This document shows, one piece after another, positions 6,257-55,793 of a DNA stretch of 64,000 bases. The translations under genes and the position numbers were made by a program. Positions within the stretch are counted from its first letter, which is position 1, and each line of letters begins with the position of its first letter. Origin of the DNA: a virus; IMG/VR virus record IMGVR_UViG_3300042861_001913; one strand, written 5' to 3'. Below the pieces are notes generated by a model, which saw only the letters and a program-made list of their open reading frames with translations, had not been told where the DNA came from and searched no databases.

Positions 6257-6908
6257 TATTAACCTCTAAATAATTAACGGAATCTTTTAGACGTAAGAAA
6301 AAAGTAGAGATGTGGTTTATTACTTCATCTAAATCGGTAGATACACAACTGTCAATTGTATTTCCTATTTCGTCATCAATATCAGACATTGAATTAATAT
6401 ATAGTATGAATTTACGATTATCATGAAAATGATAAATTCGTAAATTTATAGATTTGAATGAAGTTTTAAATTGAATACAATTAAGTTCATTATTTTCAGT
6501 AAACCACGTTAAATTAAACGCACTATCTAACTTATCTTTAATTACAGTTACTTCATCATCAGTTATTTTATTTAACTTATCTCTAGTTAACTTAACTGTA
6601 GTTCTATGTGATTTGATTACACTAGCTAAATCATTTAGATATTCATCTACTCCATCTAAATCATGTTGTAGATCGTAATTAACTCGTCTTTCTAATAACT
6701 CAAATAAGTTATCACTTTTAAAGTAAGCTACATTATCTTCATCTACTTCAATACTAGTTGCGGGATTATGTCCTATCTCATTAATCCACATAACACCATT
6801 ATCTTCAATGGTTAATATTACTTTATCTCCAGGATAGAATGAGTAATCTACATCTTCACCTCGACATTCAGGTAAATTACGTAATACTATTGCATTGTAA
6901 ACTTGCAT
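6228..6908 (-). CDS. hypothetical protein (226 aa)
   Basis: ORF track. Confidence 0.55.
   Translation of the reverse strand: MQVYNAIVLRNLPECRGEDVDYSFYPGDKVILTIEDNGVMWINEIGHNPATSIEVDEDNVAYFKSDNLFELLERRVNYDLQHDLDGVDEYLNDLASVIKSHRTTVKLTRDKLNKITDDEVTVIKDKLDSAFNLTWFTENNELNCIQFKTSFKSINLRIYHFHDNRKFILYINSMSDIDDEIGNTIDSCVSTDLDEVINHISTFFLRLKDSVNYLEVNNAAIHTIAD
6293..6303 (+). repeat. iterated motif GTAAGAAAAAA copy
   Basis: exact match; antisense in 6228..6908 (codes FFLR). Confidence 0.9.
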
Positions 6909-36789: not shown

Positions 36790-37239
36790 AACTCGCCCCT
36801 TACACTGTTCTAGGAAATTTAGATAGATCTATCCTAAATACCTAACATTACTACTACTAGTAGTCTTTTTAACGTTGCGACTTGTTGTTAACTCAGTGCA
36901 ACTAATTACTTACCATTGATCCTAACTATTGCTAGGTGGTGTCACTTGACTTGTCGGGACATTACCTGGTATCTCTAGATGTCCGAACATTGTGCAACCG
37001 TGATAGTGACCTTCTTTATGTTTTAGCTCTAGAGCCAGGACTTTCACCCTGATCACGGTGTAGACTACTGGTGTTCTGAGGTGTCTTGATGAGACCCAGT
37101 GCCTACGGAATGAGTAAACCCCTTAAACTCATACTCCGCATACCAGCCAATACCGTAAACTACGTGACGCAGTATCAAGGGATCTTTCGATATTAGCTAG
37201 TAATATCATAACTTAGTTTTTAATAAATTTACAACTAAA
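36790..37239. other. GC-richer stretch with no ORF of 60 aa or more, containing nested inverted repeats (function unknown)
   Basis: no ORF of 60 aa or more on either strand; stems GTCACT 36941-46/AGTGAC 37005-10 enclosing GGACAT 36957-62/ATGTCC 36979-84; hairpin 37105-37138; palindrome GCTCTAGAGC. Confidence 0.5.
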
Positions 37240-38868
37240 TTATTTCAATTTACTGCACATAGCACTACATACGACCCGAAAACCGCAGTAGCTGTCACGA
37301 ATGCCGCGCGAATCCCCATTGCGATACGCAGACCGACAGCCCCCAGCATAGGAGTACCAAGAACCGCCCCGCAGTACAACGCGTCCTGTTTTGTCACTTA
37401 GTTTATCATCACTACTAAACCATGCGCTGCCATCTGCTGGTGCATCTGTATAATTATCATGCCAAGGATCTGCACACCATTCCCACACATTTCCGTGCAT
37501 ATCATATAAACCAAAAGGGTTGGCGGGAAATTTTCCAACTTCTGTGGTTTTTTTTCGATATTCTCCTTTTTGTCCCTGCCCGTAAGTGTAGTTACCATTA
37601 TAATTAGCTAAATCTGTAGAAATTGTTTCCCCACAATAAAACGGGGTAGTAGTTCCTCCACGACAAGCATATTCCCATTCGGCTTCAGTAGGTAAACGAT
37701 AGGTTTTATTTGCCATTCGGGAAAGTCTGGCACAAAATTCTTGAGCATCATTCCATGATACACACTCAACAGGCAGATTATCACCTTTAAAACAAGATGG
37801 ATCAGATTCTAAATCAATGTTAACCTTTGGTAAGGCAGCCACGACTCGCCATTGTTGTTGAGTAACTGGATATTTACCCATGAAAAACGGGGGAACAGTA
37901 ACTTGATGTTGTGGACTTTGAGAAGAATGATAACCTTCCTCATTTTCTGGAGAACCCATGATAAAAGTCCCCCCAGGGATAGCCACCATTTCTAGTTGAG
38001 TGTCGTTAGCTAAGTCTTCTAATGCCAAATCTTTTATTTCTTCTAAGTTCATGAATTTTTGTTGTTCTTCACTACTTAAACGATTCCATTTACTGCACAT
38101 AGCACTACACACAACCCGAAAACCAATATTGAGGTAGTAGTAGTCGAGATTGAAGGCGTTGCGATAAGCAGAACGGCAATAGTCAGGATGGTAGTACCAC
38201 GAACCACCGCGCAGCAGCCTTCTGTTACTATCCTTTTTGTTACTTAACCATGCGCTTCCATCTGTTGGCGCACCTTCATAATTATTATGCCAATGGTCTT
38301 GACACCACTCATATACATTGCCGTGCATATCGTATAATCCAAAATTATTGGCTACTCCAAAGCTGCCTACTGCTGTTGTTTCTCCTCTATCAACTCCTTT
38401 AACCCCATCGCCATAAGTGGAATTACCATCATAATTAGCTAAATCCGTTGTTATCGTTTCTCCAAAGTGAAATGGTGTGGTAGTTCCGGCTCGACAGGCA
38501 TATTCCCATTCAGCTTCACTGGGAAGACGGTAGGTTCTACCTGTATATTGTGAAAGGCGATCGCAAAACTCAACCGCATCTTCCCAAGAAACTTGCTCAA
38601 CGGGACGATTATCACCTTTAAATCTAGACGGATCTTGCTCTAAATCACGGTTCACTTGGGGTAACTGTGCCACAAATCGCCATTGTTCTTGGGTGACTTG
38701 ATATTTACCCATAAAAAAGGGTTCTATTGTAACTTCATGTTGTGGACGTTCACTATCCATGCTATTTTCCTCTTCTTTTGGTGAACCCATGATAAAAGTG
38801 CCACCGGGGATTGCAGCCATTTCCAATATCACACCATTTCCTAAATCTTCAACAAAAATGTTTTTCAT
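37240..38868 (-). CDS. tandem FGE-sulfatase (SUMF1/EgtB/PvdO family, C-type-lectin fold) domain protein
   Basis: two copies of the pattern [14 protein letters not shown]...PQHxVT...FFMGKYxVTQxQW...WEYACRxGTTTPF...YDMHGNVxEWCxD...LRGGSWY...CRSAYRN...[12 protein letters not shown]. Confidence 0.85.
37249..37284 (-). repeat. 36-nt conserved tail repeat, copy 2 (34/36 identical to 38089-38124), just 3' of hypervariable patch 37285-37356
   Basis: TTTACTGCACATAGCACTACATACGACCCGAAAACC versus ...ACACACAACCC...; encodes [12 protein letters not shown]. Confidence 0.85.
38089..38124 (-). repeat. 36-nt conserved tail repeat, copy 1, just 3' of hypervariable patch 38125-38196
   Basis: see 37249-37284. 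Confidence 0.85.
38557..38564. repeat. HIP1 octamer GCGATCGC (single copy)
   Basis: exact palindrome; HIP1 is the highly iterated palindrome of many cyanobacterial genomes. Confidence 0.6.
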
Positions 38869-38893
38869 GCGTATTTTATTCCTTGTAGACGCT

Positions 38894-39259
38894 TTATTCT
38901 ATCCACTCTAAAAACTCTATTTTCATCTTTACAGATTGCTTGAACAGTCTGTAGTCAAACTTAGATGACAGCATCAGGTTCGATTCATAGGGCTTTATGC
39001 CTTTACACCAACTAACAGATATGTGAGGACATTTGTTAGCGCAGGGAATATGATCAGGAAGTTTGACAGCTACAGCTTGTATTTTGCCGTTCCAAGCTTC
39101 ATATAAAGTTGTGGCTTGGAACTCTAAACCCTCCCACTCTTTCCAGTCTTGGCGGACAACCCCAAACTGGAGTGTTGTATGGTGGGGACTCCCCACGGGG
39201 TAGAGTGGGGAAATTATTAGGGGCGACTGGATTACACCCCACAGGATACCGTTAGTCAT
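38894..39259 (-). CDS. small 2H-phosphoesterase-like protein (LigT/2',5'-PDE-like), tentative
   Basis: two HxT/S motifs: [10 protein letters not shown] and CPHISVSW; unusually short (121 aa). Confidence 0.4.
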
Positions 39260-39620
39260 CTAAAGAAACTAACGAATAGACAATCTTTGTTTTTATGTCT
39301 TCTGTTTGTTCTGTTAGTGGTAAGTCCACTAACTCGGAATCAAGCAATAAAACTTTAATTCCGAGGTTTGTTAACTTAATTAAAGTCAGTCCGGTAACTG
39401 AAGCAGCGATAATTTGATCGCCTTTGTTTAAGGCTATCTCAGTCGTGTTAACTACATCTTTGTCATCGAAACAATATTCTATCTCTTCGACAATTAAATA
39501 ATTTCCATTTTCTTCCAAATAAAAGTCAAAAGTATTGCCTCGACTTTCTCGCTCGTAGCTATAGTCGGGATTAATCCCGAAAAGTTCGTTAAACTCTTGT
39601 GAAATAAAAGAATAAATCAT
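39252..39620 (-). CDS. hypothetical protein (122 aa), GC-richer island
   Basis: ORF track. Confidence 0.55.
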   Translation of the reverse strand: MIYSFISQEFNELFGINPDYSYERESRGNTFDFYLEENGNYLIVEEIEYCFDDKDVVNTTEIALNKGDQIIAASVTGLTLIKLTNLGIKVLLLDSELVDLPLTEQTEDIKTKIVYSLVSLDD

Positions 39621-39712
39621 TGCTTACTCCTAAGTGGGTGTGTGTAAAGTGACTTCCCACGACTACCAGGTGGTAGTTTCGGACGGTAGCCAGCCGTCCA
39701 TCATCAGGTGGG

Positions 39713-40036
39713 TTAAACGGTAATAAAAGGTTGCCAACCTGGTTTTACTCGACGGCTTTCTAACCATTTCTCTTCTTCCAGTTCTTTTTCCAGATCAGCG
39801 CGGGTAATAGCCGCTTCTCCTTCCACTCCTTCCATCAGGAAAGTGTCGCCTAATGGGGCGCGTTCAATTGCAGTCAATGGTGTTAGCCACTCATGATCGT
39901 CAGGTATTTCTTTAATTTCCCCAGCAAATTTAATATCAGGGGACTTGGAATAACCAACCAAGTCCCCTTGGTTTGTTGTGTAAGCGTATTCAACCAGGTT
40001 ATAGCAATAACCATCTACTATCATTGTTGTTTGCAT
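39713..40036 (-). CDS. hypothetical protein (107 aa), GC-richer island
   Basis: ORF track; RBS AAGGAAGGAAACA before the ATG. Confidence 0.55.
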   Translation of the reverse strand: MQTTMIVDGYCYNLVEYAYTTNQGDLVGYSKSPDIKFAGEIKEIPDDHEWLTPLTAIERAPLGDTFLMEGVEGEAAITRADLEKELEEEKWLESRRVKPGWQPFITV

Positions 40037-40076
40037 TGTTTCCTTCCTTTGTTTGATGTTTATCTGACTAATTAGC

Positions 40077-40117
40077 CAGCAACATCTATCAAGTCTCGCA
40101 TTTGATAGATGTTGCTG
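40077..40117 (-). repeat. CAGCAA-clamped hairpin cassette U1 (16-bp stem)
   Basis: CAGCAACATCTATCAA 40077-92 pairs with TTGATAGATGTTGCTG 40102-17; flanked by CTGAATAACTA and ATGTTTATCTGA, both shared with U2. Confidence 0.7.
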
Positions 40118-40122
40118 AATAA

Positions 40123-40341
40123 CTAATGATAGTAATGTAGTTTTACTGCACCATAGAACTTATCATCTTCATAGTGATCTAATGCTGTTATAACAGGTAT
40201 ATCAACCTTAGATACTACAAAGGTATTAATAACTGTAGTAATTATGAAGTAGTTACTACGTCTAACTACCATTACTATGTTAGATGTATCTATCGCTAGA
40301 ACACTTCCTTTTAAAATTGTGTATCCACCCACTGTCATCAT
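40123..40341 (-). CDS. hypothetical protein (72 aa), AT-rich ORF between two hairpin cassettes
   Basis: ORF track. Confidence 0.45.
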   Translation of the reverse strand: MMTVGGYTILKGSVLAIDTSNIVMVVRRSNYFIITTVINTFVVSKVDIPVITALDHYEDDKFYGAVKLHYYH

Positions 40342-40368
40342 TGTTGTTTCCCTCTTCAGTATTTACAA

Positions 40369-40406
40369 CAGCAGTTTAATGACGTGCTTAGGTCGTTTAA
40401 GTGCTG
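40369..40406 (-). repeat. CAGCA-clamped hairpin cassette U0
   Basis: CAGCA 40369-73 / TGCTG 40402-06 with an imperfect inner stem; just after the stop of 40417..40800. Confidence 0.5.
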
Positions 40407-40416
40407 AACAGAATGA

Positions 40417-40800
40417 TTAGTGTTGTTTTGTGATTTCGGTCGGCATTATATCCTCAGATGGGGAGTTTTGGACTCGTGTCTTTTTTTCTTTCAGTTTTTC
40501 TACGTCCTTTTGTAAAAGTCGGTAGAGATTTTCTAAGGTGTTTTCTGGTTTAGTTCTAGGGACTCTACCAATTTCCCTTTCCCGTTCTTCTAAAAAGACT
40601 GCATTTCTAACTTTTTCATAGTCAAGATACCATTGACGGATAGCTTCTGCAACTACTTCAGGAGGTTCAGTTTCTATACCAGCGATAGTTTTTTGTAATT
40701 CTGTGATAGCATCTAAAGAAACGTCCGAAAAAACATAATCTTGGTTTCTCACGACTTCGGTAAATGCTTGGATAATTTGATTAGATTCTATTGGAGTCAT
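40417..40800 (-). CDS. hypothetical protein (127 aa), GC-richer, cyanobacterium-like composition
   Basis: ORF track. Confidence 0.55.
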   Translation of the reverse strand: MTPIESNQIIQAFTEVVRNQDYVFSDVSLDAITELQKTIAGIETEPPEVVAEAIRQWYLDYEKVRNAVFLEEREREIGRVPRTKPENTLENLYRLLQKDVEKLKEKKTRVQNSPSEDIMPTEITKQH

Positions 40801-40811
40801 GTTTATCTCTC

Positions 40812-40821
40812 TTTTTCTTAC
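40812..40821 (-). repeat. iterated 10-mer GTAAGAAAAA copy (intergenic)
   Basis: plus strand TTTTTCTTAC; 11 nt upstream of ATG 40800 in gene direction. Confidence 0.9.
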
Positions 40822-41773: not shown

Positions 41774-43696
41774 TCACTTGATCTTATAGGTGATAAGACC
41801 TTTACCAGTTCCCTGTTCAATGTGTGAATTACCTTTATCAGTTTGATAACTTCTAACTTTATAAACTAACTTATTAAATTCTGTTATACGCTTGTTGTAA
41901 TCGGCGTTATCAGTGTACATAAGGTTATCATTGATAGTTAACTTGTGTTTAGTATCAACTAGCTGTTTTCTGTCCATTGATAACTTAATAACTAAGTATT
42001 CAAGTATATTAACAGCTAGTGAGTTGAGTTGGTTATCTGGTAATTCTACTTGATGACTTCTAATCAATGCTTTATATGTAGTTGTCATTGTCCTTATAAA
42101 GTCGCGTGTTCTCTTATCAGCTAAGTTAGTATCCTGTTGATAAGTTGCATTTTGTATTTTAGTTTCTAACTCGCGTACATTAGCCTTAATCATTTTAAGG
42201 CGTGCACTATCGAATATTTTAGATAACCATTTATGGTTATCATTATTTTTGACGTGCTTAACCTTACCTGATACGATAATAATGGGATCATAATTGCCCG
42301 TTACTGTCACGGATTGTCCTATACTTTTTTTCTTACATAACTCACGTTTTCCTACACTTAACTGATCATGAGTCAATGATAGTCCAGCGTACTTGTCATA
42401 CTCACTAGCTGTAATCTTACCTGACTTATTAAGCATATCCGCCAGATACTCGTAGCGGGGCATTGATGCAACCCATTTAATATCGTTAATTGTGATTAGT
42501 TCCACTGTACCAAGATCGGCGATCTTAGTACGTTGCTGATACATAGTAGCGTTATCTAATTGACTGTTATGTTTACCTATGAGTTGTTTAGTGCCGTGGT
42601 CAACTTTACGAGTAAATGAGTCAGATAACTTATACAGCACTAGCCTATCGTTTTCTAACGCTACTTGTAATAAATGTTCATTATTAGCGTCTACCTGATA
42701 CATCCAATCATTAGGAAATAGTTCCCACTTGAATGGTAATGACCAATTAGCTAGTAGTCCAGTTTTGAACTTATTAACGTAGTTTTGTACTGGTCTATCT
42801 ACTTTATTCTCACTAGGTAATACTTGTAATGAAGAGATTACAAATTTACCATTTACCTTAATTTGATGTACATAAGGACAAAAAGTTATATCGGTTAGAG
42901 TAACTTTATTTGGATCACTTGAGTTTAATGATTCATTGACGATAGGTAAACGATCATATAAGTTCCAGAAAATCAATTTTTCTGGAGTAAAGTCGTTAGC
43001 TTGTTTATTTTCGATTTTACTTGATGGACTAATCAAGTTAATAGCAAACTCAGTTCCCTTACGATTCATCTCTCTGTTCTTAGATGCTTTAGATAGTAGT
43101 CTTCTGTACCATCTAGGGGGCGATACTTGTTTAGTATCATCTACTAATTCTTGTCTCTCTTTACCATTGTGAATACGCACTATCTTATTACCGTTTTTAG
43201 TACCATAGATATATTCCCACTTTTGTTCCATAGTTATCTCTATGATATTGACATCATATAAACTAGGTATATCTGAGTTGAGTAAACGACTAGGATCGTT
43301 ATCTCTAAAATACTTAACAGCATCTTGCACATAGTTGTAAGATGATAACTTTACTTGGATATTGTCAGCGTCAACATGAGCATTGTTAAGCCAGACCATA
43401 CATTTAGATATGGCGGTTGTAGCACAACTTGTTAACCGTGTTATCTGTGGTTTAATAACGTCATTAGTCGTAACTTGTTTAACTTGAGTATCTACAACTG
43501 GAGTAACTTCATCAAATAGTGAAAATATATCACTTAAATCATCTAGAGTTAAATCATTAACCTTACTAACGTTAACTTGATTTAAATCATAATCCTCAAG
43601 TGTTTTTACAAGTTCCATAGTTTTCATGTTAGCTCTAATACCGCGTTGTTTAGCTAATTTCTGTAATTGATTGTATGGTAATTCGTTGTAATTCAT
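41774..43696 (-). CDS. large hypothetical protein (640 aa) with N-terminal SAP-like helix-extended-helix
   Basis: YNQLQKLAKQRGIRANMKTMELVKTLEDY resembles SAP / Rho-N DNA/RNA-binding motifs. Confidence 0.6.
   Translation of the reverse strand: MNYNELPYNQLQKLAKQRGIRANMKTMELVKTLEDYDLNQVNVSKVNDLTLDDLSDIFSLFDEVTPVVDTQVKQVTTNDVIKPQITRLTSCATTAISKCMVWLNNAHVDADNIQVKLSSYNYVQDAVKYFRDNDPSRLLNSDIPSLYDVNIIEITMEQKWEYIYGTKNGNKIVRIHNGKERQELVDDTKQVSPPRWYRRLLSKASKNREMNRKGTEFAINLISPSSKIENKQANDFTPEKLIFWNLYDRLPIVNESLNSSDPNKVTLTDITFCPYVHQIKVNGKFVISSLQVLPSENKVDRPVQNYVNKFKTGLLANWSLPFKWELFPNDWMYQVDANNEHLLQVALENDRLVLYKLSDSFTRKVDHGTKQLIGKHNSQLDNATMYQQRTKIADLGTVELITINDIKWVASMPRYEYLADMLNKSGKITASEYDKYAGLSLTHDQLSVGKRELCKKKSIGQSVTVTGNYDPIIIVSGKVKHVKNNDNHKWLSKIFDSARLKMIKANVRELETKIQNATYQQDTNLADKRTRDFIRTMTTTYKALIRSHQVELPDNQLNSLAVNILEYLVIKLSMDRKQLVDTKHKLTINDNLMYTDNADYNKRITEFNKLVYKVRSYQTDKGNSHIEQGTGKGLITYKIK
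42325..42336 (-). repeat. iterated motif GTAAGAAAAAAA copy
   Basis: plus strand TTTTTTTCTTAC; sense in 41774..43696 (CKKK). Confidence 0.9.
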
Positions 43697-43760
43697 GATT
43701 CTAATTAACTCTTAGAGTTAACATAAGGTGAGTAATGTTAGTTAGTATTAACTAACAACA

Positions 43761-43793
43761 ATGGCTACTAAATCGTAATAACTTAGTAGCCAT
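43761..43793 (-). terminator. 11-bp perfect hairpin ATGGCTACTAA/TTAGTAGCCAT after a gene end
   Basis: starts 6 nt after the stop of 43799..44689. Confidence 0.45.
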
Positions 43794-43798
43794 AATTG

Positions 43799-44689
43799 TT
43801 ATTTAATTGATTCAAACTTAACTTTCAATTCATCGAGTGTTAATGATTCAAGTGTATCGCGTTTAATGGTTTTATCTTTCTCAGCAATATTAGCTATGTA
43901 ACTGATACGTTCGCTTTCATAAGCTTGTCTAGCTTCATTGTCTTTTAGTTTCTTATCAGCATAACCTGATAGTTTAGCTATCTCTGAACCATTAGACACA
44001 ACTCCTATAACTCTTTTAGCTGTATTACTAGCGTTAATAAAGCATTGTAAAGCAGTTTCTAATGGTATAGGATTGAATTTGTATTTTTCTAGATTACCTG
44101 CACCTTCATAAGGTTTATCTGATAACTCAGATACAGCTAACAACTCAACAAGTAGTAATACACTGTCATCATAAGCAGTTACCACTCTTAATTTGTTCTT
44201 ATCATCTATAGCAGTCTTTAAGAACTCAAAATCACCACTATCAATAGCACTGATAAAGATATCTGCAAGATCCGCCCTGTTTTTAATTTCTGGATAATTT
44301 ACTAATTCACCGTCAGTAGGGAATAGAGAGTTAGAAAATATTTCTACTGACAATTCCCACTGCTTTGAAAAGTGCCACACTTTACACGGTACAAATTCTT
44401 CACATAACTGTTTAGCAAACTTACCATCGCTGTTCTTAGTACCGCTATCTGCTTTAATCCAGTTTGATACTAGGATACTGAATCTAAGGATATCGTTATC
44501 CTTATTACATTCTGTTTCAAACTTGACTGTCAAACTAATAGGTTTTTTGGTAACAAGATTAGTAGTTTTATCAACGCCGGTATGTTGATATGCCCCGAAA
44601 GACATACTTAACGGATTACGATTACTGTTGATCTTGCTGCGTTCAATTGCGCTGAGTGAGTTAAGTTGAACAGTTGTTAAGCTAGTCAT
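43799..44689 (-). CDS. hypothetical protein (296 aa)
   Basis: ORF track. Confidence 0.6.
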   Translation of the reverse strand: MTSLTTVQLNSLSAIERSKINSNRNPLSMSFGAYQHTGVDKTTNLVTKKPISLTVKFETECNKDNDILRFSILVSNWIKADSGTKNSDGKFAKQLCEEFVPCKVWHFSKQWELSVEIFSNSLFPTDGELVNYPEIKNRADLADIFISAIDSGDFEFLKTAIDDKNKLRVVTAYDDSVLLLVELLAVSELSDKPYEGAGNLEKYKFNPIPLETALQCFINASNTAKRVIGVVSNGSEIAKLSGYADKKLKDNEARQAYESERISYIANIAEKDKTIKRDTLESLTLDELKVKFESIK

Positions 44690-47581: not shown

Positions 47582-49231
47582 ATGACTTCCCGCGAACAAT
47601 TAGAAAAAGAACTAGCTAACATAGAGAACAAGTTATATGAACTAGCGATACTAGATAATAAGGATGAACAGTATGAATTAGAATCACTACTAGAAGAACA
47701 AAGTTACGTTCAAGCATATCAATCTAGTTACAGTTTCCTAGCTCATAGTTGGCAGACATTCAATGGTGAAGTATTCCTACCAGCTAAACATCTACACGCA
47801 ATAGCCGAACATCTAGATGCAACATTAACTGGTGAAATAAAACGACTTATAATTAACGTACCACCTAGAACTGCTAAGTCAGCATTAGTAACTAAAGCAT
47901 TTCCAGCCTATTGTTGGATAAGGCAGCCTCATCTTAAATTCGCCAACGTTAGTTATGGTTATGGATTAGCAGAAGAAGGTAGTGTACATAGTCGTCAGAT
48001 AATGCAATCTGATTGGTATAAGCGAGGTATGGCTACAGTATGGCGCGATATGGGTGCTACACCATGGGAGTTCAGACGCGATAAGAATATGAAGAATGAC
48101 TATGAGAATAATGCTAATGGTCGTAGATTCGCCACATCATGTCCTGAAGGTATCTTCACTGGTATTGGTGCAGACACAATTATAATTGACGACCCTGTTA
48201 AAGCTAACGCTGCATATAGTAAGAATACACTTGATAAAGTTAATCAATGGGTCAGCAATACTCTGATGTCGCGTTTAAACAACCAATCAGAAGGTGTTAT
48301 CATCTTGGTTCAACAAAGGGTTAGTGAAATGGATATGACTGGTTTTTTCTTACAACAAGAAGGAGTTTGGGAACATCTATGTCTCCCAATGGAATATGAA
48401 GACACTCAGAGATACTGGACTCGCATTGGTTGGACTGATTGGCGCACTAATCAGAATGAATTACTTGAACCAATTCGATTTCCGCGAGATGTGGTTGAGA
48501 GGCTCAAGAAGGACGAGGAATGGAGCTATGCTAGTCAATATCAACAACAACCAGTTCCGCTCGGTGGTGGACTTATTAGGCGTGAATGGTGGCAGAATTG
48601 GTACATACTTCCAACTCAGTTTGATGCAACTTGCATGGCATTCGATTTATCTATGAACGATAAGGAAACTAGCGATAATACGTCACTTATAGTTATGGGA
48701 CGTAAGGATAACAAGTTCTACATTATTGACTTAGTGTATGGCAAAATGGATATACTTAAACAAGTAGAATCCATAATTGAGTTGTGTAATAAGTATCCGA
48801 TGATAAGAACTAGGTTAATTGAACAACGTGCAAATGGAGATGCTGTAATTGCATTACTTAAACGTACCATAACTGGACTTATACCACTCATAACTAAAGG
48901 TGATAAAGAACAACGTATCCTTAGTTGTGTGCCAGAAATTAATGCAGGTAACGTATTAGTTCCAGATGAGAATGTACATAGTTGGATTAAACCACTATTA
49001 CTAGAAGCTACTATGTTTCCACGTGGTAAGAATGATGATGCTATTGATAGTATGCAGATGGCACTTAATCATCTAGTTACGTCAAACATCGTTACTTATA
49101 TGCCACTTCAAGTTATTACAGATAGTCCAGGTAATACAACTCGTGCTGAAATAAGAGAACATATAATGGATAGTAGTTATGCTGTTACAGTTAATGTGAC
49201 TCGTAACTATATTAAAGGTTTATTTGAATAA
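47582..49231 (+). CDS. terL: terminase large subunit
   Basis: ATPase IINVPPRTAKSALVT and IIIDDP; nuclease half FDLSMNDKETSDNTSLIVMG...YIIDLVYGKM...GDKEQRI...FPRGKNDDAIDSM. Confidence 0.85.
   Translation: MTSREQLEKELANIENKLYELAILDNKDEQYELESLLEEQSYVQAYQSSYSFLAHSWQTFNGEVFLPAKHLHAIAEHLDATLTGEIKRLIINVPPRTAKSALVTKAFPAYCWIRQPHLKFANVSYGYGLAEEGSVHSRQIMQSDWYKRGMATVWRDMGATPWEFRRDKNMKNDYENNANGRRFATSCPEGIFTGIGADTIIIDDPVKANAAYSKNTLDKVNQWVSNTLMSRLNNQSEGVIILVQQRVSEMDMTGFFLQQEGVWEHLCLPMEYEDTQRYWTRIGWTDWRTNQNELLEPIRFPRDVVERLKKDEEWSYASQYQQQPVPLGGGLIRREWWQNWYILPTQFDATCMAFDLSMNDKETSDNTSLIVMGRKDNKFYIIDLVYGKMDILKQVESIIELCNKYPMIRTRLIEQRANGDAVIALLKRTITGLIPLITKGDKEQRILSCVPEINAGNVLVPDENVHSWIKPLLLEATMFPRGKNDDAIDSMQMALNHLVTSNIVTYMPLQVITDSPGNTTRAEIREHIMDSSYAVTVNVTRNYIKGLFE
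48343..48353 (-). repeat. iterated motif GTAAGAAAAAA copy
   Basis: plus strand TTTTTTCTTAC inside terL (GFFLQ, third phase). Confidence 0.9.
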
Positions 49232-50745: not shown

Positions 50746-51646
50746 TATAGTTAAAGCCTTTGATTTTAATAACGAATCAATTTATCGCCGCACTTCAGAT
50801 AACTATTGGAATGCAACTGCAATGTGCAAAGCAGGTGGTAAAAGAATAGATCACTTTTTCGAGAACAAATGGTCAAAGTCTTATATAGAACAGGTTTCCA
50901 CGATCACCGGAATTAAGGGTAACGAACTTGTTCAAACAATTAAAGGTGGTAATCCTTATGAACAAGGAACTTGGGTACATGAAATAGTTGCAATACGAAT
51001 AGCCCAATGGTTATCACCTGAATTTGCTGCTAAAGTTGACTTAACTCTATATCAACTAAAACAGCAGTATCAACAATCACATCAATTATTACTAGAACAA
51101 GAATCTGCTAATGTACACGGCATTCCAATTGCACCACGTAATGAAGTAGACTTAGCATTCCGCATTAAGAACTGGATTGATTTATGTACTGATGGTGGTA
51201 GATTCTACATTGAACATCCACTAATCAATACTATTAATGCAACAACTAAAACTAGAAGAGTTGACTTCGTTAAATCTAATGGACGTAATGTTATAGTATA
51301 TGAGTTAAAGTTAAATAAGATAACTACAAATGACATAGCTAAAACTATAGGAGATAAAGGTTATTATCAACTATGTGCTGATAAGTTCAATCGTCCCATT
51401 AAGTTTATATTCCTATCACCGTTAGGTATAACTAATGAAGCACAGTTACTACTAGATAGGATGAATGATGTGAGTTTCCTAACTACACAACAACTATGTC
51501 AGGAGTATTATGTTAAAGGTAAGAAAAATAAGTGGCGCAGTTCTGAATGGTATTTAGATGTGCAAGTTAAAGATGATAAGTTCTCACATCTATTCACAGA
51601 TGAGTTTATTAATGATGTTACAGTTAAGTTAACTAAGGTAAAGTAG
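50738..51646 (+). CDS. KilA-N domain fused to a PD-(D/E)XK-like nuclease domain
   Basis: YWNATAMCKAGGKRIDHFFENKW...GTWVHEIVAIRIAQWLSPEFA (KilA-N); C-terminal RRVDFVKSNGRNVIVYELKLNK (D...ExK). Confidence 0.6.
   Translation: MSNIVKAFDFNNESIYRRTSDNYWNATAMCKAGGKRIDHFFENKWSKSYIEQVSTITGIKGNELVQTIKGGNPYEQGTWVHEIVAIRIAQWLSPEFAAKVDLTLYQLKQQYQQSHQLLLEQESANVHGIPIAPRNEVDLAFRIKNWIDLCTDGGRFYIEHPLINTINATTKTRRVDFVKSNGRNVIVYELKLNKITTNDIAKTIGDKGYYQLCADKFNRPIKFIFLSPLGITNEAQLLLDRMNDVSFLTTQQLCQEYYVKGKKNKWRSSEWYLDVQVKDDKFSHLFTDEFINDVTVKLTKVK
51519..51528 (+). repeat. iterated 10-mer GTAAGAAAAA copy
   Basis: exact; sense in 50738..51646 (GKKN). Confidence 0.9.
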
Positions 51647-51650
51647 AGTT

Positions 51651-51920
51651 ATGAAACACACAGTATTAATAAGTTGTTTAAGTGGTGTTATTTATGAACA
51701 ACTTAAACCAGATACATCTAACTACATTACTTATAACTACGATAACGAATCTAAGTTATGGACAATTAAATTAACTTGGTATGTAGGTAATAAGTTAATG
51801 GGTTATAGATTAGCTATAACTGACTTTGATTTAGATACGATATATCAGAACTTAATTATTGAGAAGTATACAACTGAAGTTATCGCCGCATATAATAAGT
51901 CATTCGCTACGCCAACATGA
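51651..51920 (+). CDS. hypothetical protein (89 aa)
   Basis: ORF track. Confidence 0.5.
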   Translation: MKHTVLISCLSGVIYEQLKPDTSNYITYNYDNESKLWTIKLTWYVGNKLMGYRLAITDFDLDTIYQNLIIEKYTTEVIAAYNKSFATPT

Positions 51921-52144
51921 ATAACATTGAATTTATTAACTACGTTAACACTAACTTTGTAGACACATATAAAGCTCATCTACAACAGTATGTTCCTTAT
52001 CCTCATATAATGTTTAAAAGTATTGAACATAACGTGTTTACTAACATCCCAGTATATCCAGATCAAGTTATATCTGAGCAAGCTAAAGATGAGATATTAA
52101 ACTCTGTTAATAATTACTTCAGTAACTTAATTACAACTAACTAA
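51917..52144 (+). CDS. hypothetical protein (75 aa)
   Basis: ORF track. Confidence 0.5.
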   Translation: MNNIEFINYVNTNFVDTYKAHLQQYVPYPHIMFKSIEHNVFTNIPVYPDQVISEQAKDEILNSVNNYFSNLITTN

Positions 52145-52181
52145 GGATAACTAAATTAAGTTAAACTACATATAACACTAG

Positions 52182-52210
52182 AAGCCGCCACTAATCGCGG
52201 CTTATTTATT
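52182..52210 (+). terminator. terminator-like hairpin AAGCCGC/GCGGCTT followed by ATTTATT
   Basis: 7-bp stem 52182-88/52197-203, immediately before ATG 52211. Confidence 0.5.
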
Positions 52211-55200
52211 ATGAACATCAACAAGTACATTAAAGAACAAGATGAGTTAGTTACTGCATTTACAGATGGATTAACTAATAGTATAGGTAACTCATTATCG
52301 CGTAAACAAGATAACTTAAGTCTCATTATCAGTAATCAATTAAATAAGTTATGGAATGATAGTTGGAATCTCGGACGTACTCATGCAATAGATGAAACGC
52401 CGCCATCCCTTTTTTCTTACTCTGATAGCATTGCGGAATTTGCATCACCACTTGAGAAATTAAGAAATGAGATTGATGAAATTACTAAGGAAAAGGAAGG
52501 TTATCAATCTGAGTTAGATAGAATACGTCGTGATTATCAAGATAAAGAAGGTAATTATAGTGGTACTAAGATATTAAGATCAATTGATAAAAAAGGTACT
52601 TATAATGATGTAGATAAAGTTAGAGCTATTCAAGTTATACGTAATCGTGAAGATGAGTTAAATGCACTTATCGCAGCTAAGGATAACTTAATTAAAGATA
52701 AACAAGATAAGTTTTTTGAATTAACTGATCCTGCTAACATAGCTAAGTTAAATGAGTTATCTAAAGATACTAAAGATGTTACACCTGAAGTATTACCTCG
52801 TGTTAATAAAGCTGAAGTTAATCAACAATTAAGTAAAGCAGTTAGAGATAGAGATGCTTGGCGTAAATCATTTGTAGATGAGAATGGTAATTTAAACTTA
52901 GCTAAGTATAGAAGAGTTAAAGGTTATGACACTTCTGATAGTGATGCTGATGTATTAAAACAAATGAAGAGAGAAGAACTTGATTTAATTAATGAAGTTA
53001 AACGACATAATCAAACACTTAATGATATTAATGATAGAAGTACATCAACTAGAACTACATCTATTAAGGAACAAGCTTTAATTGATAAACAAAAACGTAG
53101 AATTGAACGTCAATTAAAGAAACAACAGAACTTACAAACAACTAAGTTAGATGCTAATAAGATACCTGCTAACATCAGAGATTCAGTTCAAGCAATTGAA
53201 CAACGTCGTCAAATTGAATCTACTAGAGGCGATGTACCATTACTTGAACAAACTGAGTTTGGTAAATCGTATTTAAATAGACGTATTAATACTATAGGTA
53301 ATGATCTGAACGAACGATATAAAGCGACATTACAACAGATACTTGTTGGTGAAAAAGAAACTAAAACTACTGGTTATTTAGCAGATAATAGCCCTGATAA
53401 AGACGTTACTTATTATAAACGTATTAGTGCAATGTTAACTAGAGAAGATGCTAAACAAATGGAGCAATACAATAAACAACTTGAGTTAATTAAAACTCGA
53501 TTAGATGATATCCCAACTAAATTAACTGCAACTAAAGATATGAATGTTTATGAGAGTGTAGCATTCCTTAAACAGAAGTATGATCCTGATGTTAAGTTAA
53601 CTATCACTGATAAGAAACTACTTAATGAGTTACCAGATAAAGCAGTTTATAAGATGCAGGATTTAAGAGCTTATCGTGACAAGTTACTTGAGAAAGTAAG
53701 AAAACTAAAGGATAATCAGGCTCGTACTAAACGTATTGCAATAACTGAAATGGGACACGCTTATAATTTAGGGCGACTTGATTACTACGTGAAACAAGGT
53801 ATTAAGTTTGTTAAGTGGAACAATAGTATTGAACATAAACGTGCTATGATTCCCGGCGATTATAATACTAGATATCGTAAAATATACAATAAATTATCTG
53901 AGTTAATTAATAGATCACCACAACTTGAGTCATTTAAGATGGATGGTATTGTATGTCCAATATGTCAGGAACGCGCTATCTATGATTATGGTTATGGTAA
54001 AGGAATAATTAAGATAGATGACTTGTTAAGTAATAGTCAAAGTCAACCACTACTTCACGCAAATTGCTCGTGTTTTCTTACCAGTGTAGAGGAATCTGAA
54101 ACTAAAGAACCATTTAATGTACCAATCTATGTATCATCATTACTTAATAATAATGTTGTTAAATGGGCAACTGCTGGTATATTAGGAACTGCTGCTATGT
54201 ATGCGGCATTTAAGAAGAGTAATGTAACTCCACTTAACATACCTGATATTATTAGAAGTAAACCAGCAGTAGTTACAACTAAAGCATTAAGTCAAGCATT
54301 ACTAGATGATATTATTGATGTTCCATTAGTTCCATTACAAATACCTGAACGTGTACCAACTACAATTAACATTGATAGAGCAAATAAAGTATTAGAAGAT
54401 GTAGTTAATTGGCACACTAATACTATTGATGAGTCTATTACTAAAGCTATTGAAATAGATAATAGATATGAATTAGTTAATCCATTTATGACAGCAATTA
54501 CTGAATCTTCAGTAGATGACATTACAACTAGAGTTAAAAAATATAACTCTATAACTAAAGCTACTTTAACTAAAAATGATCTTAATCAATTTAAAGAAGA
54601 TGTAGATAAAATTCAACATTACATTAATGAAATAGAAGATGCTAATACTAAGATTTATTCATCTATTCAATCAATGAAGTTAGCTAGAAAAGCAATTATA
54701 GATGAAGGGTTGAATAAGCTAAGTGATGAATTAATTCCACCTGGATTTACTCCAGAACAAGTTATTATTAGTAATCCTATTATCCAACGATTAGATAATC
54801 AGATAATACAATCTGAGAATACATTAAGGAATGCAATTTCATTAAAGTTAGGTGAAACTAGTCATTATTCAACACTAAAAAGAATCAGAAATGATTTATT
54901 AGATAATGAGTTATTTAAGTTGGAGTACATTAAACGTAAACGTGGTGTTCTATTAAGATTACAAGATAAATTAATTGGTAAATTTGATAAAGTTAAAAAA
55001 GTTTTTGTTGGTGGACAAGTTAATCCTAGAGTATTAGAACGTGATTTAGAAGAGTTACAGAATACTATACTTTCTAATTACATGAATGTAAATAATGAAC
55101 AATTTGAATCATATGTTAGACAATTAGATAATATTGAGTTAGCAATAGATGGACAACTTGAGTTAATTAAGAATAAGTTAGGTTTGACTAGTTTAGATGC

Positions 55201-55327
55201 ACGTAATTACACAGGTAATGATATGGCAGTATTAACTAGCGAGTTTATTAGTGATTATAAGAATGGTTTAATGCGAAGTAAACTTAGAGCTATGGGATTA
55301 AGAAATCTATTAATAGATGTAAAATAG
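52211..55327 (+). CDS. MuF-like (SPP1 gp7 family) minor head protein with long N- and C-terminal extensions (1038 aa)
   Basis: central RTKRIAITEMGHAYNLGRLDYY...KFVKWN...GIVCPICQERA...PLLHANCSCFLTSV matches the MuF core ending in the HxNCRC-like motif; coiled-coil N-terminal region; TM-like VVKWATAGILGTAAMYAAF after the core. Confidence 0.75.
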   Translation: MNINKYIKEQDELVTAFTDGLTNSIGNSLSRKQDNLSLIISNQLNKLWNDSWNLGRTHAIDETPPSLFSYSDSIAEFASPLEKLRNEIDEITKEKEGYQSELDRIRRDYQDKEGNYSGTKILRSIDKKGTYNDVDKVRAIQVIRNREDELNALIAAKDNLIKDKQDKFFELTDPANIAKLNELSKDTKDVTPEVLPRVNKAEVNQQLSKAVRDRDAWRKSFVDENGNLNLAKYRRVKGYDTSDSDADVLKQMKREELDLINEVKRHNQTLNDINDRSTSTRTTSIKEQALIDKQKRRIERQLKKQQNLQTTKLDANKIPANIRDSVQAIEQRRQIESTRGDVPLLEQTEFGKSYLNRRINTIGNDLNERYKATLQQILVGEKETKTTGYLADNSPDKDVTYYKRISAMLTREDAKQMEQYNKQLELIKTRLDDIPTKLTATKDMNVYESVAFLKQKYDPDVKLTITDKKLLNELPDKAVYKMQDLRAYRDKLLEKVRKLKDNQARTKRIAITEMGHAYNLGRLDYYVKQGIKFVKWNNSIEHKRAMIPGDYNTRYRKIYNKLSELINRSPQLESFKMDGIVCPICQERAIYDYGYGKGIIKIDDLLSNSQSQPLLHANCSCFLTSVEESETKEPFNVPIYVSSLLNNNVVKWATAGILGTAAMYAAFKKSNVTPLNIPDIIRSKPAVVTTKALSQALLDDIIDVPLVPLQIPERVPTTINIDRANKVLEDVVNWHTNTIDESITKAIEIDNRYELVNPFMTAITESSVDDITTRVKKYNSITKATLTKNDLNQFKEDVDKIQHYINEIEDANTKIYSSIQSMKLARKAIIDEGLNKLSDELIPPGFTPEQVIISNPIIQRLDNQIIQSENTLRNAISLKLGETSHYSTLKRIRNDLLDNELFKLEYIKRKRGVLLRLQDKLIGKFDKVKKVFVGGQVNPRVLERDLEELQNTILSNYMNVNNEQFESYVRQLDNIELAIDGQLELIKNKLGLTSLDARNYTGNDMAVLTSEFISDYKNGLMRSKLRAMGLRNLLIDVK
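52410..52420 (-). repeat. iterated motif GTAAGAAAAAA copy
   Basis: plus strand TTTTTTCTTAC in the MuF-like gene (LFSY). Confidence 0.9.
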
Positions 55328-55352
55328 ATATGATACCTTAATCAATAAACTT

Positions 55353-55793
55353 ATGTACTTAATGGCAGATTTTGCGCGACGTGTTGGAAGTAAAGATAAG
55401 AAGAAACGTAAAAACGCTAACTTATTTACATCAACACTAATAGGTGGTGGTTTAATGTATGGTGGTTATAAATTAGATGAGCCTGGAATTAGATTACCTG
55501 ATAAAAAACCTAAACTTAATAGAACTACTAGTGGTGATCCTGGTTTAGATTTGGCATTTGATTTTAAAAACGAATTAATTAAACGAAATAAACCTGAAGT
55601 TAATAGACGTTATTTTAAATTATTTGGTGGTAAATACAAACAGTTAGTTGATAATACTTTATATAGTCCTAATCCTGGAAGAAGACAACTTGCAGCTATT
55701 GGAACATTAGTTGGTGCTGCTTATTTAGGAGCTAACGCAATTAAAGGTGGTAGTTATTTAATTAATAAAGCGCGTAATAAAGGTAATAAATAG
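55353..55793 (+). CDS. tag-family protein P3 (FARRVGSKDKKKRK tag, two glycine-zipper segments)
   Basis: MYLMADFARRVGSKDKKKRKN...LIGGGLMYGG ... AAIGTLVGAAYLGANAIKGG. Confidence 0.65.
   Translation: MYLMADFARRVGSKDKKKRKNANLFTSTLIGGGLMYGGYKLDEPGIRLPDKKPKLNRTTSGDPGLDLAFDFKNELIKRNKPEVNRRYFKLFGGKYKQLVDNTLYSPNPGRRQLAAIGTLVGAAYLGANAIKGGSYLINKARNKGNK

What the first reader, a model, noticed from the sequence alone, without database searches (positions are those of the whole stretch)
36790..40810. GC-richer, cyanobacterium-like island inside an AT-rich phage backbone
From about 36.8 to 40.8 kb the sequence is visibly richer in G+C than the rest of the window, except for the AT-rich 72-aa ORF at 40123..40341. 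Three observations point to foreign origin. The island contains the cyanobacterial HIP1 octamer GCGATCGC (38557-38564). It encodes a tandem FGE-sulfatase-domain protein of a type abundant in filamentous cyanobacteria. It contains none of the 44 copies of the phage GTAAGAAA(A) motif, although the backbone averages about one copy per 1.5 kb. Together these suggest a relatively recent capture of host-like DNA. The host is therefore probably a cyanobacterium, but that is an inference.
Basis: partly seen in the sequence, partly recalled or inferred. Interest (0 to 1): 0.6.

Follow-up and report, generated by a model that had tools for sequence, protein, structure and literature searches.

The report
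Phage lectin gene rewritten from host retroelement
The GC-rich patch in this roughly 122-kb virus of bloom-forming filamentous cyanobacteria is a mosaic of host-like DNA, and its core is a lectin-type gene whose two binding-site tips carry the signature of the host's hypermutation system (a DGR), which the virus itself appears to lack.

Summary
The GC rise is real: 0.403 against 0.319, z = 7.6, with tetranucleotide use closer to Dolichospermum/Anabaena DNA than to the phage backbone. The gap in GTAAGAAA copies is not unusual, and one HIP1 site is weak evidence.

The island is a mosaic, not one capture. Its core (37240-38868, minus strand) fuses two FGE-sulfatase/C-type-lectin genes that are 65% identical. 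Each ends in a 105-nt DGR variable region.
- VR1 matches the template repeat of a Dolichospermum DGR.
- VR2 matches a different template found beside avd and RT genes in Anabaena-type genomes.
- Over eight phage alleles, mismatches fall at 131/228 template adenines against 20/612 other positions.

Sister phages (backbone 97-99% identical) carry one such gene in the same slot. Two alleles are identical over 640 nt upstream yet differ at 20 VR positions, 19 of them adenine sites.

No RT, Avd or template was found in a composite covering the whole ~122-kb genome.

Domain 2's scaffold is 93.5% nt identical to a host TIR-lectin gene. ORF 40417-40800 is 95% identical to a host gene next to a CHAT protease.

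Best reading: a captured copy of the host's hypervariable sensor domain, still rewritten in trans by host DGRs. Import by recombination remains a live rival. This scan has noted similar cases in other cyanophages.

The parts
36790..37239 (-). GC-rich (0.40) non-coding stretch directly downstream of the lectin gene. Function unknown.
   Evidence: No ORF longer than 44 aa, no tRNA and no Rfam match. One substitution in about 450 nt across sister phages, although the flanking genes differ by 7-26%. No match in 20 genomes of the host genus. Folding energy is unremarkable: z -1.3 and -1.7.
37240..38868 (-). 542-aa protein made of two fused FGE-sulfatase/C-type-lectin (CLec) domains, with no effector domain.
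   Evidence: PF03781, E 7.8e-115, two stretches. The two domains are 65% aa identical to each other. The closest solved structures are non-catalytic members of the fold: PvdO, PorK/GldK, pFGE, and the DGR protein TvpA.
38110..38214 (-). VR1, the variable region of domain 1 ('P-type').
   Evidence: Aligned without gaps to the template repeat of the Dolichospermum sp. ST_sed8 DGR (L194:1038-1162, 22 nt after the RT stop). Mismatches: 14/31 at template adenines, 2/74 elsewhere; Fisher p = 2e-7.
37270..37374 (-). VR2, the variable region of domain 2 ('A-type').
   Evidence: Matches the template repeat lying beside avd/RT in an Anabaena sp. CRKS33 MAG (L259) and in genome G140 (L258). Mismatches: 17/27 at adenines, 3/78 elsewhere; p = 4e-10.
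37382..38040 (-). Scaffold of domain 2, a recent host-derived sensor domain.
   Evidence: 93.5% nt identity over 573 nt to the TIR-FGE gene of G004 (L167), against 73-77% to sister-phage alleles. It sits in a 99%-supported clade of TIR-FGE and caspase-FGE proteins.
38083..38095 (-). In-frame fusion junction between the two lectin genes.
   Evidence: The tail of gene A (...CSAMCSK) runs into ...[12 protein letters not shown]. In sister alleles that stretch is the end of a 147-aa N-terminal domain (...DAISK|WNRL...). The shared microhomology is AGTAAAT.
38894..39259 (-). 121-aa protein of a mainly viral family resembling 2H/cyclic phosphodiesterases.
   Evidence: PF08302, E 1.4e-7. Atlas clusters are 63-100% viral. 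73% nt identity to Aphanizomenon phage CL131 gp125, 81% to L008 and 73% to one host genome.
39252..39620 (-). 122-aa ORF of unknown function.
   Evidence: No Pfam, PHROG or PADLOC match. Present in sister contig L006 (86% aa) and in L008 (68% aa).
39656..39712 (-). Candidate type I hammerhead ribozyme lying between two ORFs.
   Evidence: The core CUGAUGA / GAAA / GUC is in register with three stems, and stem II shows two compensatory pairs. The L008 copy hits RF00163 over the full model at 23.1 bits, E 0.0096, below the gathering score of 34. The window copy has an extra U after A9 and no Rfam hit. 91% identical to an intergenic site in phage CL131. Absent from 20 host genomes.
39713..40036 (-). 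107-aa ORF of unknown function, GC 0.43.
   Evidence: No family match. 78% aa identity in sister contig L006.
40123..40341 (-). 72-aa AT-rich ORF of backbone type.
   Evidence: GC 0.315. 99% aa identity in sister contig L006.
40417..40800 (-). 127-aa ORF recently taken from the host chromosome.
   Evidence: Window 40465-40794 is 95% nt identical to G142:C1:2580816-2581154, and 87-88% identical in two further genomes. The host homologue lies directly downstream of a CHAT-domain protease gene. No counterpart in the six sister contigs.

Best explanation
The island is the plastic accessory region of a roughly 122-kb virulent-type cyanophage of the Dolichospermum/Aphanizomenon/Anabaena group, and it collects pieces of host conflict-system genes.

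Its core is a free-standing copy of the C-type-lectin (FGE-sulfatase fold) sensor domain. The hosts fuse this domain to TIR, caspase, kinase and adapter domains and hypermutate it with diversity-generating retroelements (DGRs). In this phage two such genes have been fused in frame.

Each copy keeps the 105-nt variable region and the first 14-23 nt of the downstream homology. The phage carries no reverse transcriptase, Avd or template repeat. I propose that during infection the host's own DGR complexes (template RNA + RT + Avd) write adenine-mutagenised cDNA into the phage copy in trans, exactly as they do for remote chromosomal targets. At least two different host templates have done so.

The effector-less, host-like lectin protein most likely acts inside the cell as a mimic or decoy of the host's hypervariable sensors. 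It could compete for their ligand or poison their assemblies.

Shown: the fold; host kinship; the adenine-specific template/variable-region relation; VR-only differences between otherwise identical phage alleles; no RT or template found in the composite genome.

Inferred: that retrohoming happens on phage DNA in trans, and the decoy function.
For: (1) Eight phage variable regions aligned to the best host template show mismatches at 131/228 template adenines and 20/612 other positions. Each allele gives p between 1e-6 and 1e-13 (alignments).

(2) The templates are real DGR parts. In G003 the order is VP1-VP2-avd-RT-TR. In G002 the template lies after the RT. In G140 and G004 the order is TR-avd-RT.

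(3) Alleles L003 and L078 are 100% identical over the 640 nt upstream of the VR. Inside the VR they differ at 19 adenine sites and 1 other site. Alleles L005 and L007 share the scaffold (99.7%) but carry VRs derived from the two different templates. The replaced tract starts where the template starts and ends at GGTTTTCGGGT.

(4) Protein clusters of the phage alleles hold many distinct VRs: 8 among 15 members in one cluster and 5 among 15 in another.

(5) There is no RT or Avd by tblastn (best E 0.19) and no template-like DNA in the window, in G010 (55.5 kb beyond the window end) or in the bridging contig L245. Together these close a circle of about 122.2 kb. PF00078 is absent from ten related viral records, which include the sister fragments and a complete 121-kb relative. 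None of the RT-bearing IMG/VR contigs fetched has this phage's backbone.

(6) Host kinship: the domain 2 scaffold is 93.5% nt identical to a host TIR-FGE gene, and the tree places both domains inside host clades.

(7) Published context:
- Cyanobacterial DGRs diversify CLec domains, including remote targets (PMC7517822).
- Such targets are proposed to be antigen sensors of conflict systems (PMC10907252).
- avd/TR/brt work in trans from a plasmid (PMC5758913).
Against: - The phage genome outside the window was judged from sister contigs 97-99% identical to it, not from this very genome.
- The window's own tandem allele shows no VR variation among its 4 recorded sequences on 10 contigs, so no ongoing mutagenesis is seen for this particular allele.
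- Some VRs are shared across different scaffolds. VR1 equals that of L251 apart from 4 nt, while the scaffolds are only 71% identical. So recombination certainly moves VRs.
- A host-type long DGR variable protein (P0071) has a lectin scaffold 95% aa identical to phage alleles and the same CSAMCSKLK tail. That gives ample homology for plain gene conversion.
- Downstream homology to the host templates is shorter in the phage (14-23 nt) than in the hosts' own targets (about 30 nt). Whether it suffices for homing is unknown, and no downstream hairpin was tested.
- The decoy function has no direct evidence; PADLOC gave no match.
Confidence: 0.5

Rival explanations
1. Recombination only. The variable regions were mutagenised in host genes by host DGRs acting on host targets. 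The phage repeatedly picks up ready-made host variable regions (and whole scaffolds) by homologous recombination or gene conversion with host paralogues during infection. No retrohoming ever takes place on phage DNA.
For: - Each host genome searched gave 11-13 matches to the FGE domain.
- A host-type VP1 (P0071) shares a 95% aa identical scaffold and the same C-terminal tail with phage alleles.
- The domain 2 scaffold is 93.5% nt identical to a host gene.
- VR1 sits on two scaffolds that are only 71% identical.
- The tandem gene itself arose by microhomology recombination.
Against: - L003 and L078 are identical over 640 nt upstream of the VR and differ almost only at template-adenine positions inside 105 nt.
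- In L005/L007 the exchanged tract coincides with the template's ends. On the 3' side there are only about 14 nt of shared sequence before the phage-specific tail. That is short for repeated homologous crossovers but is what DGR homing produces.
Confidence: 0.3
2. Frozen relic. The lectin genes were captured from host DGR targets, once or a few times. They are no longer diversified, and the allele differences reflect old events plus ordinary drift and selection.
For: - The window's allele is invariant in its 4 recorded sequences on 10 contigs.
- One VR (DSFARH...) dominates two protein clusters.
- A few non-adenine differences exist: 20/612.
Against: - At least 20 distinct VRs occur on near-identical phage scaffolds that share the phage-specific tail.
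- Non-adenine VR positions are about 97% identical to present-day host templates, while scaffolds are 72-94% identical. The VRs are therefore younger than the scaffolds.
- Alleles with 100% identical flanks differ at 19 adenine sites.
Confidence: 0.12
3. The phage lineage has its own DGR (RT, Avd, template) that was missed: in this very genome, in some strains only, or on a co-infecting satellite.
For: - Phage-encoded DGRs with CLec targets are the classical case (BPP-1).
- The genome outside the window was inspected only through sister contigs.
Against: - Nothing was found in a composite covering about 122.2 kb.
- PF00078 is absent from ten related viral records.
- The closest RT in IMG/VR is 47% identical at best and lies on unrelated backbones.
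- Two different templates were used, each about 97% identical at non-adenine positions to host templates.
Confidence: 0.05
4. The gene is an auxiliary metabolic enzyme, a true formylglycine-generating or EgtB-like enzyme, and its C-terminal variability is incidental.
For: A strong PF03781 match.
Against: - The best solved relatives are non-catalytic members of the fold: PvdO, PorK/GldK, pFGE and the DGR protein TvpA. True FGEs score far lower.
- The stretch that would carry the catalytic cysteines is the hypervariable region itself.
- No sulfatase gene was seen among the island's ORFs.
Confidence: 0.03

Closest known systems
Cyanobacterial DGRs with CLec variable proteins and remote targets (Vallota-Eastman et al. 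2020, PMC7517822; Dore et al. 2024, PMC10907252)
   Same: - The same fold and the same VR position at the C-terminal end of the FGE/CLec domain.
- The same AAC/AAT-rich templates and adenine-only differences.
- Short CLec-only targets alongside long multidomain ones.
- Targets served in trans by a template located elsewhere.
   Different: Here the target lies on a different replicon: a virus that infects the DGR's owner. It carries no RT, Avd or template, and it has a phage-specific tail (CSAMCSKLK) after the VR. I did not find this situation described in the papers I searched.
Bordetella phage BPP-1 DGR (mtd VR, avd, TR, brt)
   Same: A phage gene with a CLec-fold domain whose C-terminal VR is rewritten by adenine-specific mutagenic retrohoming.
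   Different: - BPP-1 encodes the whole cassette in cis and diversifies a tail-fibre tip for receptor switching.
- This phage has no cassette.
- Its gene sits among small early-type genes on the strand opposite the structural module, and it resembles intracellular host sensors rather than a fibre.
FGE-sulfatase genes of Microcystis phages (Ma-LMM01 gp062 'kinase', MaMV-DC; PHROG 18508)
   Same: Effector-less FGE/CLec genes in cyanophages. Identity is 67% nt, and PHROG 18508 matches at E 2e-184. The Ma-LMM01 copy likewise groups with its own host's gene.
   Different: A separate capture from a different host lineage. It is single-domain, and I did not examine its variable region.
Host TIR-FGE (438 aa) and caspase-FGE (667 aa) proteins of Aphanizomenon/Dolichospermum
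   Same: The lectin domain is up to 84% aa identical to domain 2 with the VR included, and 93.5% nt identical over the scaffold. The VR is of the same A-type.
   Different: The phage protein lacks the TIR or caspase effector and carries two sensor domains in tandem.

Membership tests
DGR variable protein (CLec/FGE-fold target) | C-type-lectin/FGE-sulfatase fold with the variable region at its C-terminal end | tested here: met
   PF03781, E 7.8e-115. The DGR protein TvpA (2Y3C) is among the solved relatives. The variable positions lie between RGGSW and GFRVV.
DGR variable protein (CLec/FGE-fold target) | The VR matches a template repeat, with differences almost only at template adenines | tested here: met
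   VR1: 14/31 at adenines against 2/74 elsewhere. VR2: 17/27 against 3/78. Eight alleles pooled: 131/228 against 20/612.
DGR variable protein (CLec/FGE-fold target) | Cognate template repeat, reverse transcriptase and Avd in the same genome | tested here: not met
   None in the window or in the composite ~122-kb genome, and none in the related viral records. All three are present in host genomes G002, G003, G004 and G140.
DGR variable protein (CLec/FGE-fold target) | Homing signal (IMH) and hairpin downstream of the VR | tested here: inconclusive
   The phage shares 14 nt (A-type) to about 23 nt (P-type) with the templates' 3' ends, against about 30 nt in the hosts' own targets. The hairpin was not examined.
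DGR variable protein (CLec/FGE-fold target) | Evidence of diversification at the locus itself | tested here: met
   L003 and L078 have 100% identical flanks and differ at 19 adenine sites and 1 other site. L005/L007 show a template-type swap. Clusters hold many VRs. This is not seen for the window's own allele.
Formylglycine-generating enzyme (catalytic SUMF1/FGE) | Two copper-binding catalytic cysteines in the C-terminal segment | tested here: inconclusive
   By reading, only the cysteine of the CRSA motif is kept, and the segment is hypervariable. No residue-level alignment to a true FGE was obtained. Non-catalytic fold members score best.
Horizontally acquired host island | Composition differs from the backbone and resembles the donor | tested here: met
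   GC z = 7.6. Tetranucleotide distance is 0.23 to the host sample against 0.43 to the backbone.
Horizontally acquired host island | High nucleotide identity to donor genomes | tested here: met
   93.5% for the domain 2 scaffold and 95% for 40465-40794. Not met for 36790-37239, the hammerhead element or most of 38869-40400.
Horizontally acquired host island | Absent from close relatives of the recipient | tested here: not met
   The FGE slot and the non-coding stretch are present in all six sister contigs. Only 40417-40800 and parts of 38869-40400 are missing from most of them.
Hammerhead ribozyme type I (RF00163) | Core CUGANGA, GAAA and a UH cleavage site at a three-stem junction; Rfam gathering score | tested here: inconclusive
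   The core and stems can be read directly, and stem II has 2 compensatory pairs. The L008 copy scores 23.1 bits against a gathering score of 34. The window copy gets no hit.

The most novel reading that the evidence does not exclude
A virulent cyanophage carries an effector-less copy of its host's hypervariable immune-type sensor and has it continually re-randomised by the host's own DGR reverse transcriptase in trans. A cellular hypermutation system would then be shared by, or hijacked for, the virus's side of the arms race. Together with the same phage's other captured host pieces, the CHAT-linked small protein (and, per an earlier unchecked scan note, the ABC ATPase half), it would form an anti-defence island built from host conflict-system parts.
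Probability: 0.35. Interest if true: 0.9.

Novelty: new variant of a known kind. Interest (0 to 1): 0.74.

Why it matters
DGRs are the only known natural machines for targeted protein hypermutation in prokaryotes. In filamentous cyanobacteria their lectin-domain targets have been proposed to act as antigen sensors giving a form of adaptive immunity (PMC10907252).

A virus that keeps a copy of that sensor domain, written from the host's own templates, would give that hypothesis a direct handle. The phage copy points to which host sensors matter in infection. It also offers a natural trans-target for measuring DGR activity.

It would further show that retrohoming can cross from chromosome to an infecting virus, something DGR surveys have not considered. 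Wu et al. reasoned only about the opposite case (PMC5758913).

The hosts form harmful blooms, so phage-host specificity here has ecological weight. Earlier notes of this scan report the same pattern in a picocyanobacterial phage and a Microcystis phage, so it may be general among cyanophages.

Tried and rejected
- **tRNA genes or known RNA families as the cause of the GC rise.** None were found.
- **A structured RNA in 36790-37239.** Folding z is only -1.3 and -1.7. Sister copies are identical, so covariation cannot be tested.
- **A template repeat inside the window.** Only the two VRs match each other.
- **Recent tandem duplication of the FGE domain.** Rejected: the domains are 65% identical and fall in different clades.
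- **RT or Avd in the window or in sister loci.** None.
- **Cyanobacterial-type RT on IMG/VR contigs.** The best is 47% identical (over a partial 154-residue match), and all lie on unrelated backbones.
- **More DNA alleles through the phage-tail pattern.** Only 6 viral and 3 metagenome contigs turned up.
- **The GTAAGAAA gap as evidence of foreignness.** Rejected statistically.
- **PADLOC, PHROG and Pfam on the small ORFs.** Nothing beyond the weak CPD match.
- **Residue-level check of the FGE catalytic cysteines.** The PDB alignments printed did not include a true FGE.

Full report
**1. The observation**

All genes from 606 to 44689 lie on the minus strand. A large terminase (47582-49231) and head genes follow on the plus strand. 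So the window is a tailed-phage genome.

GC content is 0.28-0.35 everywhere except 37-40 kb, where it is 0.41-0.43. For 36790-40810 it is 0.403, against 0.319 for the rest. No backbone window of the same length exceeds 0.341, which gives z = 7.6.

Tetranucleotide use of the island is closer to a 47-kb sample of Dolichospermum/Anabaena DNA (L1 distance 0.23) than to the backbone (0.43). Backbone windows never come closer to the host sample than 0.34.

One copy is only weakly above chance, since 6 of 100 shuffles have one.
- GTAAGAAA occurs 53 times, and none lies between 36737 and 40814. Gaps of 4.6, 3.4 and 3.2 kb occur elsewhere, so the 4.1-kb gap means nothing.
- The tandem FGE-sulfatase protein is real.

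**2. Who the phage and host are**

The only GenBank phage with near-identical DNA is Aphanizomenon phage vB_AphaS-CL131, and it shares just a 75-nt stretch.

Six IMG/VR contigs are sister phages. They are 97-99% identical in the backbone and carry the same GTAAGAAA density. Host assignment rests on the nucleotide matches described below.

**3. The island is a mosaic**

Comparison with the sister contigs shows four things:
- All of them have one FGE gene (271-413 aa) in the same slot, upstream of the 661-aa gene. That gene is only 74-87% identical, while the flanks are 93-99% identical.
- The 450-nt GC-rich non-coding stretch 36790-37239 is virtually identical in all of them, with one substitution.
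- 38869-40812 is replaced by other small-gene cassettes in most sisters. L006 keeps 39250-40395.
- ORF 40417-40800 has no counterpart in any of them.

So the "island" is a plastic region with several histories, not a single insert.

**4. The FGE gene is a DGR-type lectin gene**

The FGE-sulfatase domain is the C-type-lectin scaffold that cyanobacterial DGRs diversify (PMC7517822).

Lining up the C-terminal ends of about 110 homologues shows a hypervariable block between RGGSW and GFRVV. It appears both in host TIR-FGE and caspase-FGE proteins and in the phage alleles. Nearly all the phage alleles end in the same tail, CSAMCSKLK.

In the window the variable codons are mostly NNC or NNT, as expected from AAC/AAT template codons.

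I then located real DGRs in host genomes:
- Dolichospermum sp. ST_sed8 (G003) has the order VP1-VP2-avd-RT-TR.
- Dolichospermum sp. UHCC 0259 (G002) has VP1-RT-TR-VP2.
- I predicted a second template type from the phage alleles. It was found, with avd and RT beside it, in an Anabaena sp. CRKS33 MAG (G004) and in G140.

VR1 (38110-38214) aligns without gaps to the G003 template. It has 14 of its 16 mismatches at template adenines. VR2 (37270-37374) aligns to the G004 template with 17 of 20 at adenines.

Pooled over eight phage alleles, 131 of 228 adenine positions differ, against 20 of 612 other positions.

**5. Diversification at the phage locus**

- L003 and L078 are 100% identical over the 640 nt upstream of the VR. 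Within the 105-nt VR they differ at 19 adenine sites and one other site.
- L005 and L007 share the scaffold (99.7%) and the downstream sequence (100% over 330 nt). L005 carries a VR of the first template type and L007 one of the second. The exchanged tract begins where the templates begin and ends at GGTTTTCGGGT.
- Protein clusters built at 90% identity hold 5 and 8 different VRs among 15 members each. Many members sit on 1-2-kb contigs.
- Recombination also acts. VR1 recurs, apart from 4 nt, in L251 on a scaffold only 71% identical.
- The window's own tandem allele is invariant in its four recorded sequences, which come from 10 contigs.

**6. No retroelement in the phage**

The window has no template-like sequence and no RT or Avd.

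I tiled the rest of the genome from sister contigs:
- G010 (68.7 kb) runs from window position 49.5 kb to 55.5 kb beyond the window's end.
- L245 joins G010's far end to window position 1 across 2.7 kb.
- Together they give a circle of about 122.2 kb. This equals the 121,994-bp longest contig recorded for the window's protein.

Nothing in this composite resembles a DGR RT, Avd or template. PF00078 is absent from ten related viral records. These include G010 and G009, a complete 121-kb relative with terminal repeats that carries nine lectin genes in a row. RT-bearing IMG/VR contigs related to the host RT are at most 47% identical (over a partial match) and lie on unrelated backbones.

**7. Kinship with host genes**

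- The two domains are 65% identical to each other and sit in different, well-supported clades.
- Domain 2 lies among TIR-FGE and caspase-FGE proteins of Aphanizomenon/Dolichospermum/Anabaena. Domain 1 lies among sister-phage alleles mixed with host proteins that carry adapter-type N-terminal domains.
- Outside the VR, domain 2 is 93.5% nt identical to the TIR-FGE gene of G004 but only 73-77% to sister-phage alleles. Domain 1 is 91.6% identical to sister alleles and 84% to G003 VP1.
- A host-type long variable protein (P0071) has a lectin scaffold 95% aa identical to phage alleles and the same tail. Exchange between host and phage at this locus is therefore recent and repeated.
- Ma-LMM01's FGE gene pairs with a Microcystis gene, which marks a separate capture.

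**8. How the tandem arose**

Sister alleles of 401-413 aa have a 147-aa N-terminal domain ending ...[17 protein letters not shown].

In the window, the tail of the first gene (...CSAMCSK) runs straight into [12 protein letters not shown]. The join is at the shared heptamer AGTAAAT. This removed the first gene's stop codon and most of the second gene's N-terminal domain.

**9. The rest of the island**

- *ORF 40417-40800.* It is 95% nt identical over 40465-40794 to a chromosomal gene of G142, and 87-88% identical in two other genomes. There the gene lies just downstream of a CHAT protease gene.
- *The 121-aa ORF.* It belongs to a mostly viral family with 2H/cyclic-phosphodiesterase likeness and is shared with phage CL131.
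- *The 75-nt GC-rich element.* It reads as a type I hammerhead ribozyme:
  - stem I is CCCAC/GUGGG, followed by CUGAUGA, stem II, GAAA, stem III and the GUC cleavage site;
  - stem II covaries;
  - the copy in phage contig L008 matches Rfam RF00163 end to end at 23.1 bits, below the family threshold;
  - the window and CL131 copies carry one extra U and get no hit;
  - host genomes lack the element.
- *The non-coding stretch 36790-37239.* It remains unexplained.

**10. Interpretation**

Certain or nearly so:
- The island's core is a host-derived DGR target domain.
- Its variable regions were written from templates of the kind now found in Dolichospermum/Anabaena genomes.
- The phage lineage lacks the machinery.

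Most likely (about 50%): host DGR complexes home into the phage copy during infection.

Main rival (about 30%): ready-made host VRs are imported by gene conversion. Both may operate.

The protein has no effector domain and closely resembles host sensor domains. It sits in the same region as the captured CHAT-linked gene, and an earlier scan note reports a captured ABC ATPase half 2.3 kb before the window. All this suggests a decoy or anti-defence role, but that is inference only.

I found no paper describing a cellular DGR acting on a gene of an infecting phage. Earlier unchecked notes of this scan report the same pattern in a picocyanobacterial phage, a Microcystis phage and a lake phage with a planctomycete-type template.

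Noticed in passing
window 39656-39712 (minus); L001:4001-4075; L008:7886-7943 and 6672-6722; L006:1627-1718: A candidate type I hammerhead ribozyme lies between ORFs and is shared by three phage lineages: this phage, Aphanizomenon phage CL131 and the L008 phage. Its core is CUGAYGA/GAAA/GUC, and stem II has two compensatory pairs. The L008 copy hits RF00163 at 23.1 bits (E 0.0096). The window copy has an extra U after A9. It is absent from 20 host genomes.
   Followed up: partly
window 36790-37239: A 450-nt GC-rich non-coding stretch just downstream of the hypervariable gene is virtually identical (one substitution) in all sister phages, although both flanking genes vary by 7-26%. It has no ORF, no Rfam family, no host match and no unusual folding energy.
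   Followed up: partly
window 40417-40800; L262 (G142:C1:2579316-2582654): A 127-aa ORF is 95% nt identical to a host chromosomal gene that sits between a CHAT-domain protease gene and a 429-aa gene of unknown function. The sister phage contigs lack it. It may be another captured piece of a host conflict system.
   Followed up: partly
L002:4539-11425 (IMG/VR contig 3300040801_004793 = G009, complete 121 kb with terminal repeats): A distant relative (terminase 40% identical) carries nine single-domain FGE/lectin genes back to back. Most end in a shared ...F(Q/S)(A/S/N)FGF peptide, and several have NNC-rich VR-like blocks. The genome has no RT.
   Followed up: partly
L008 (IMG/VR contig 3300042875_001142, GC 0.40): A different phage-like contig with a DNA polymerase III alpha gene is colinear with window 38265-39715 at 81% nt. 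The shared block is hammerhead, 122-aa ORF, 121-aa ORF and the start of an FGE gene, so this block travels between phage lineages.
   Followed up: partly
window 38894-39259: A 121-aa protein has two H-x-T/S motifs (HTTL, HISV) and a weak match to the tRNA-ligase cyclic phosphodiesterase domain. It belongs to a large, mostly viral family of 120-136 aa proteins. A signal-nucleotide-degrading role next to a TIR-sensor mimic is conceivable but untested.
   Followed up: partly
window, whole length: GTAAGAAA occurs 53 times on both strands against about 5 expected. Sister contigs have the same density (0.65-0.94 per kb), while unrelated contigs have almost none, so it served as a fingerprint of this phage backbone.
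   Followed up: partly
G010 positions 42001-44500 and 51501-55500 (sister contig, beyond the window end): There are further GC-rich patches (up to 0.48) in the part of the phage genome outside the window. They were not examined.
   Followed up: no
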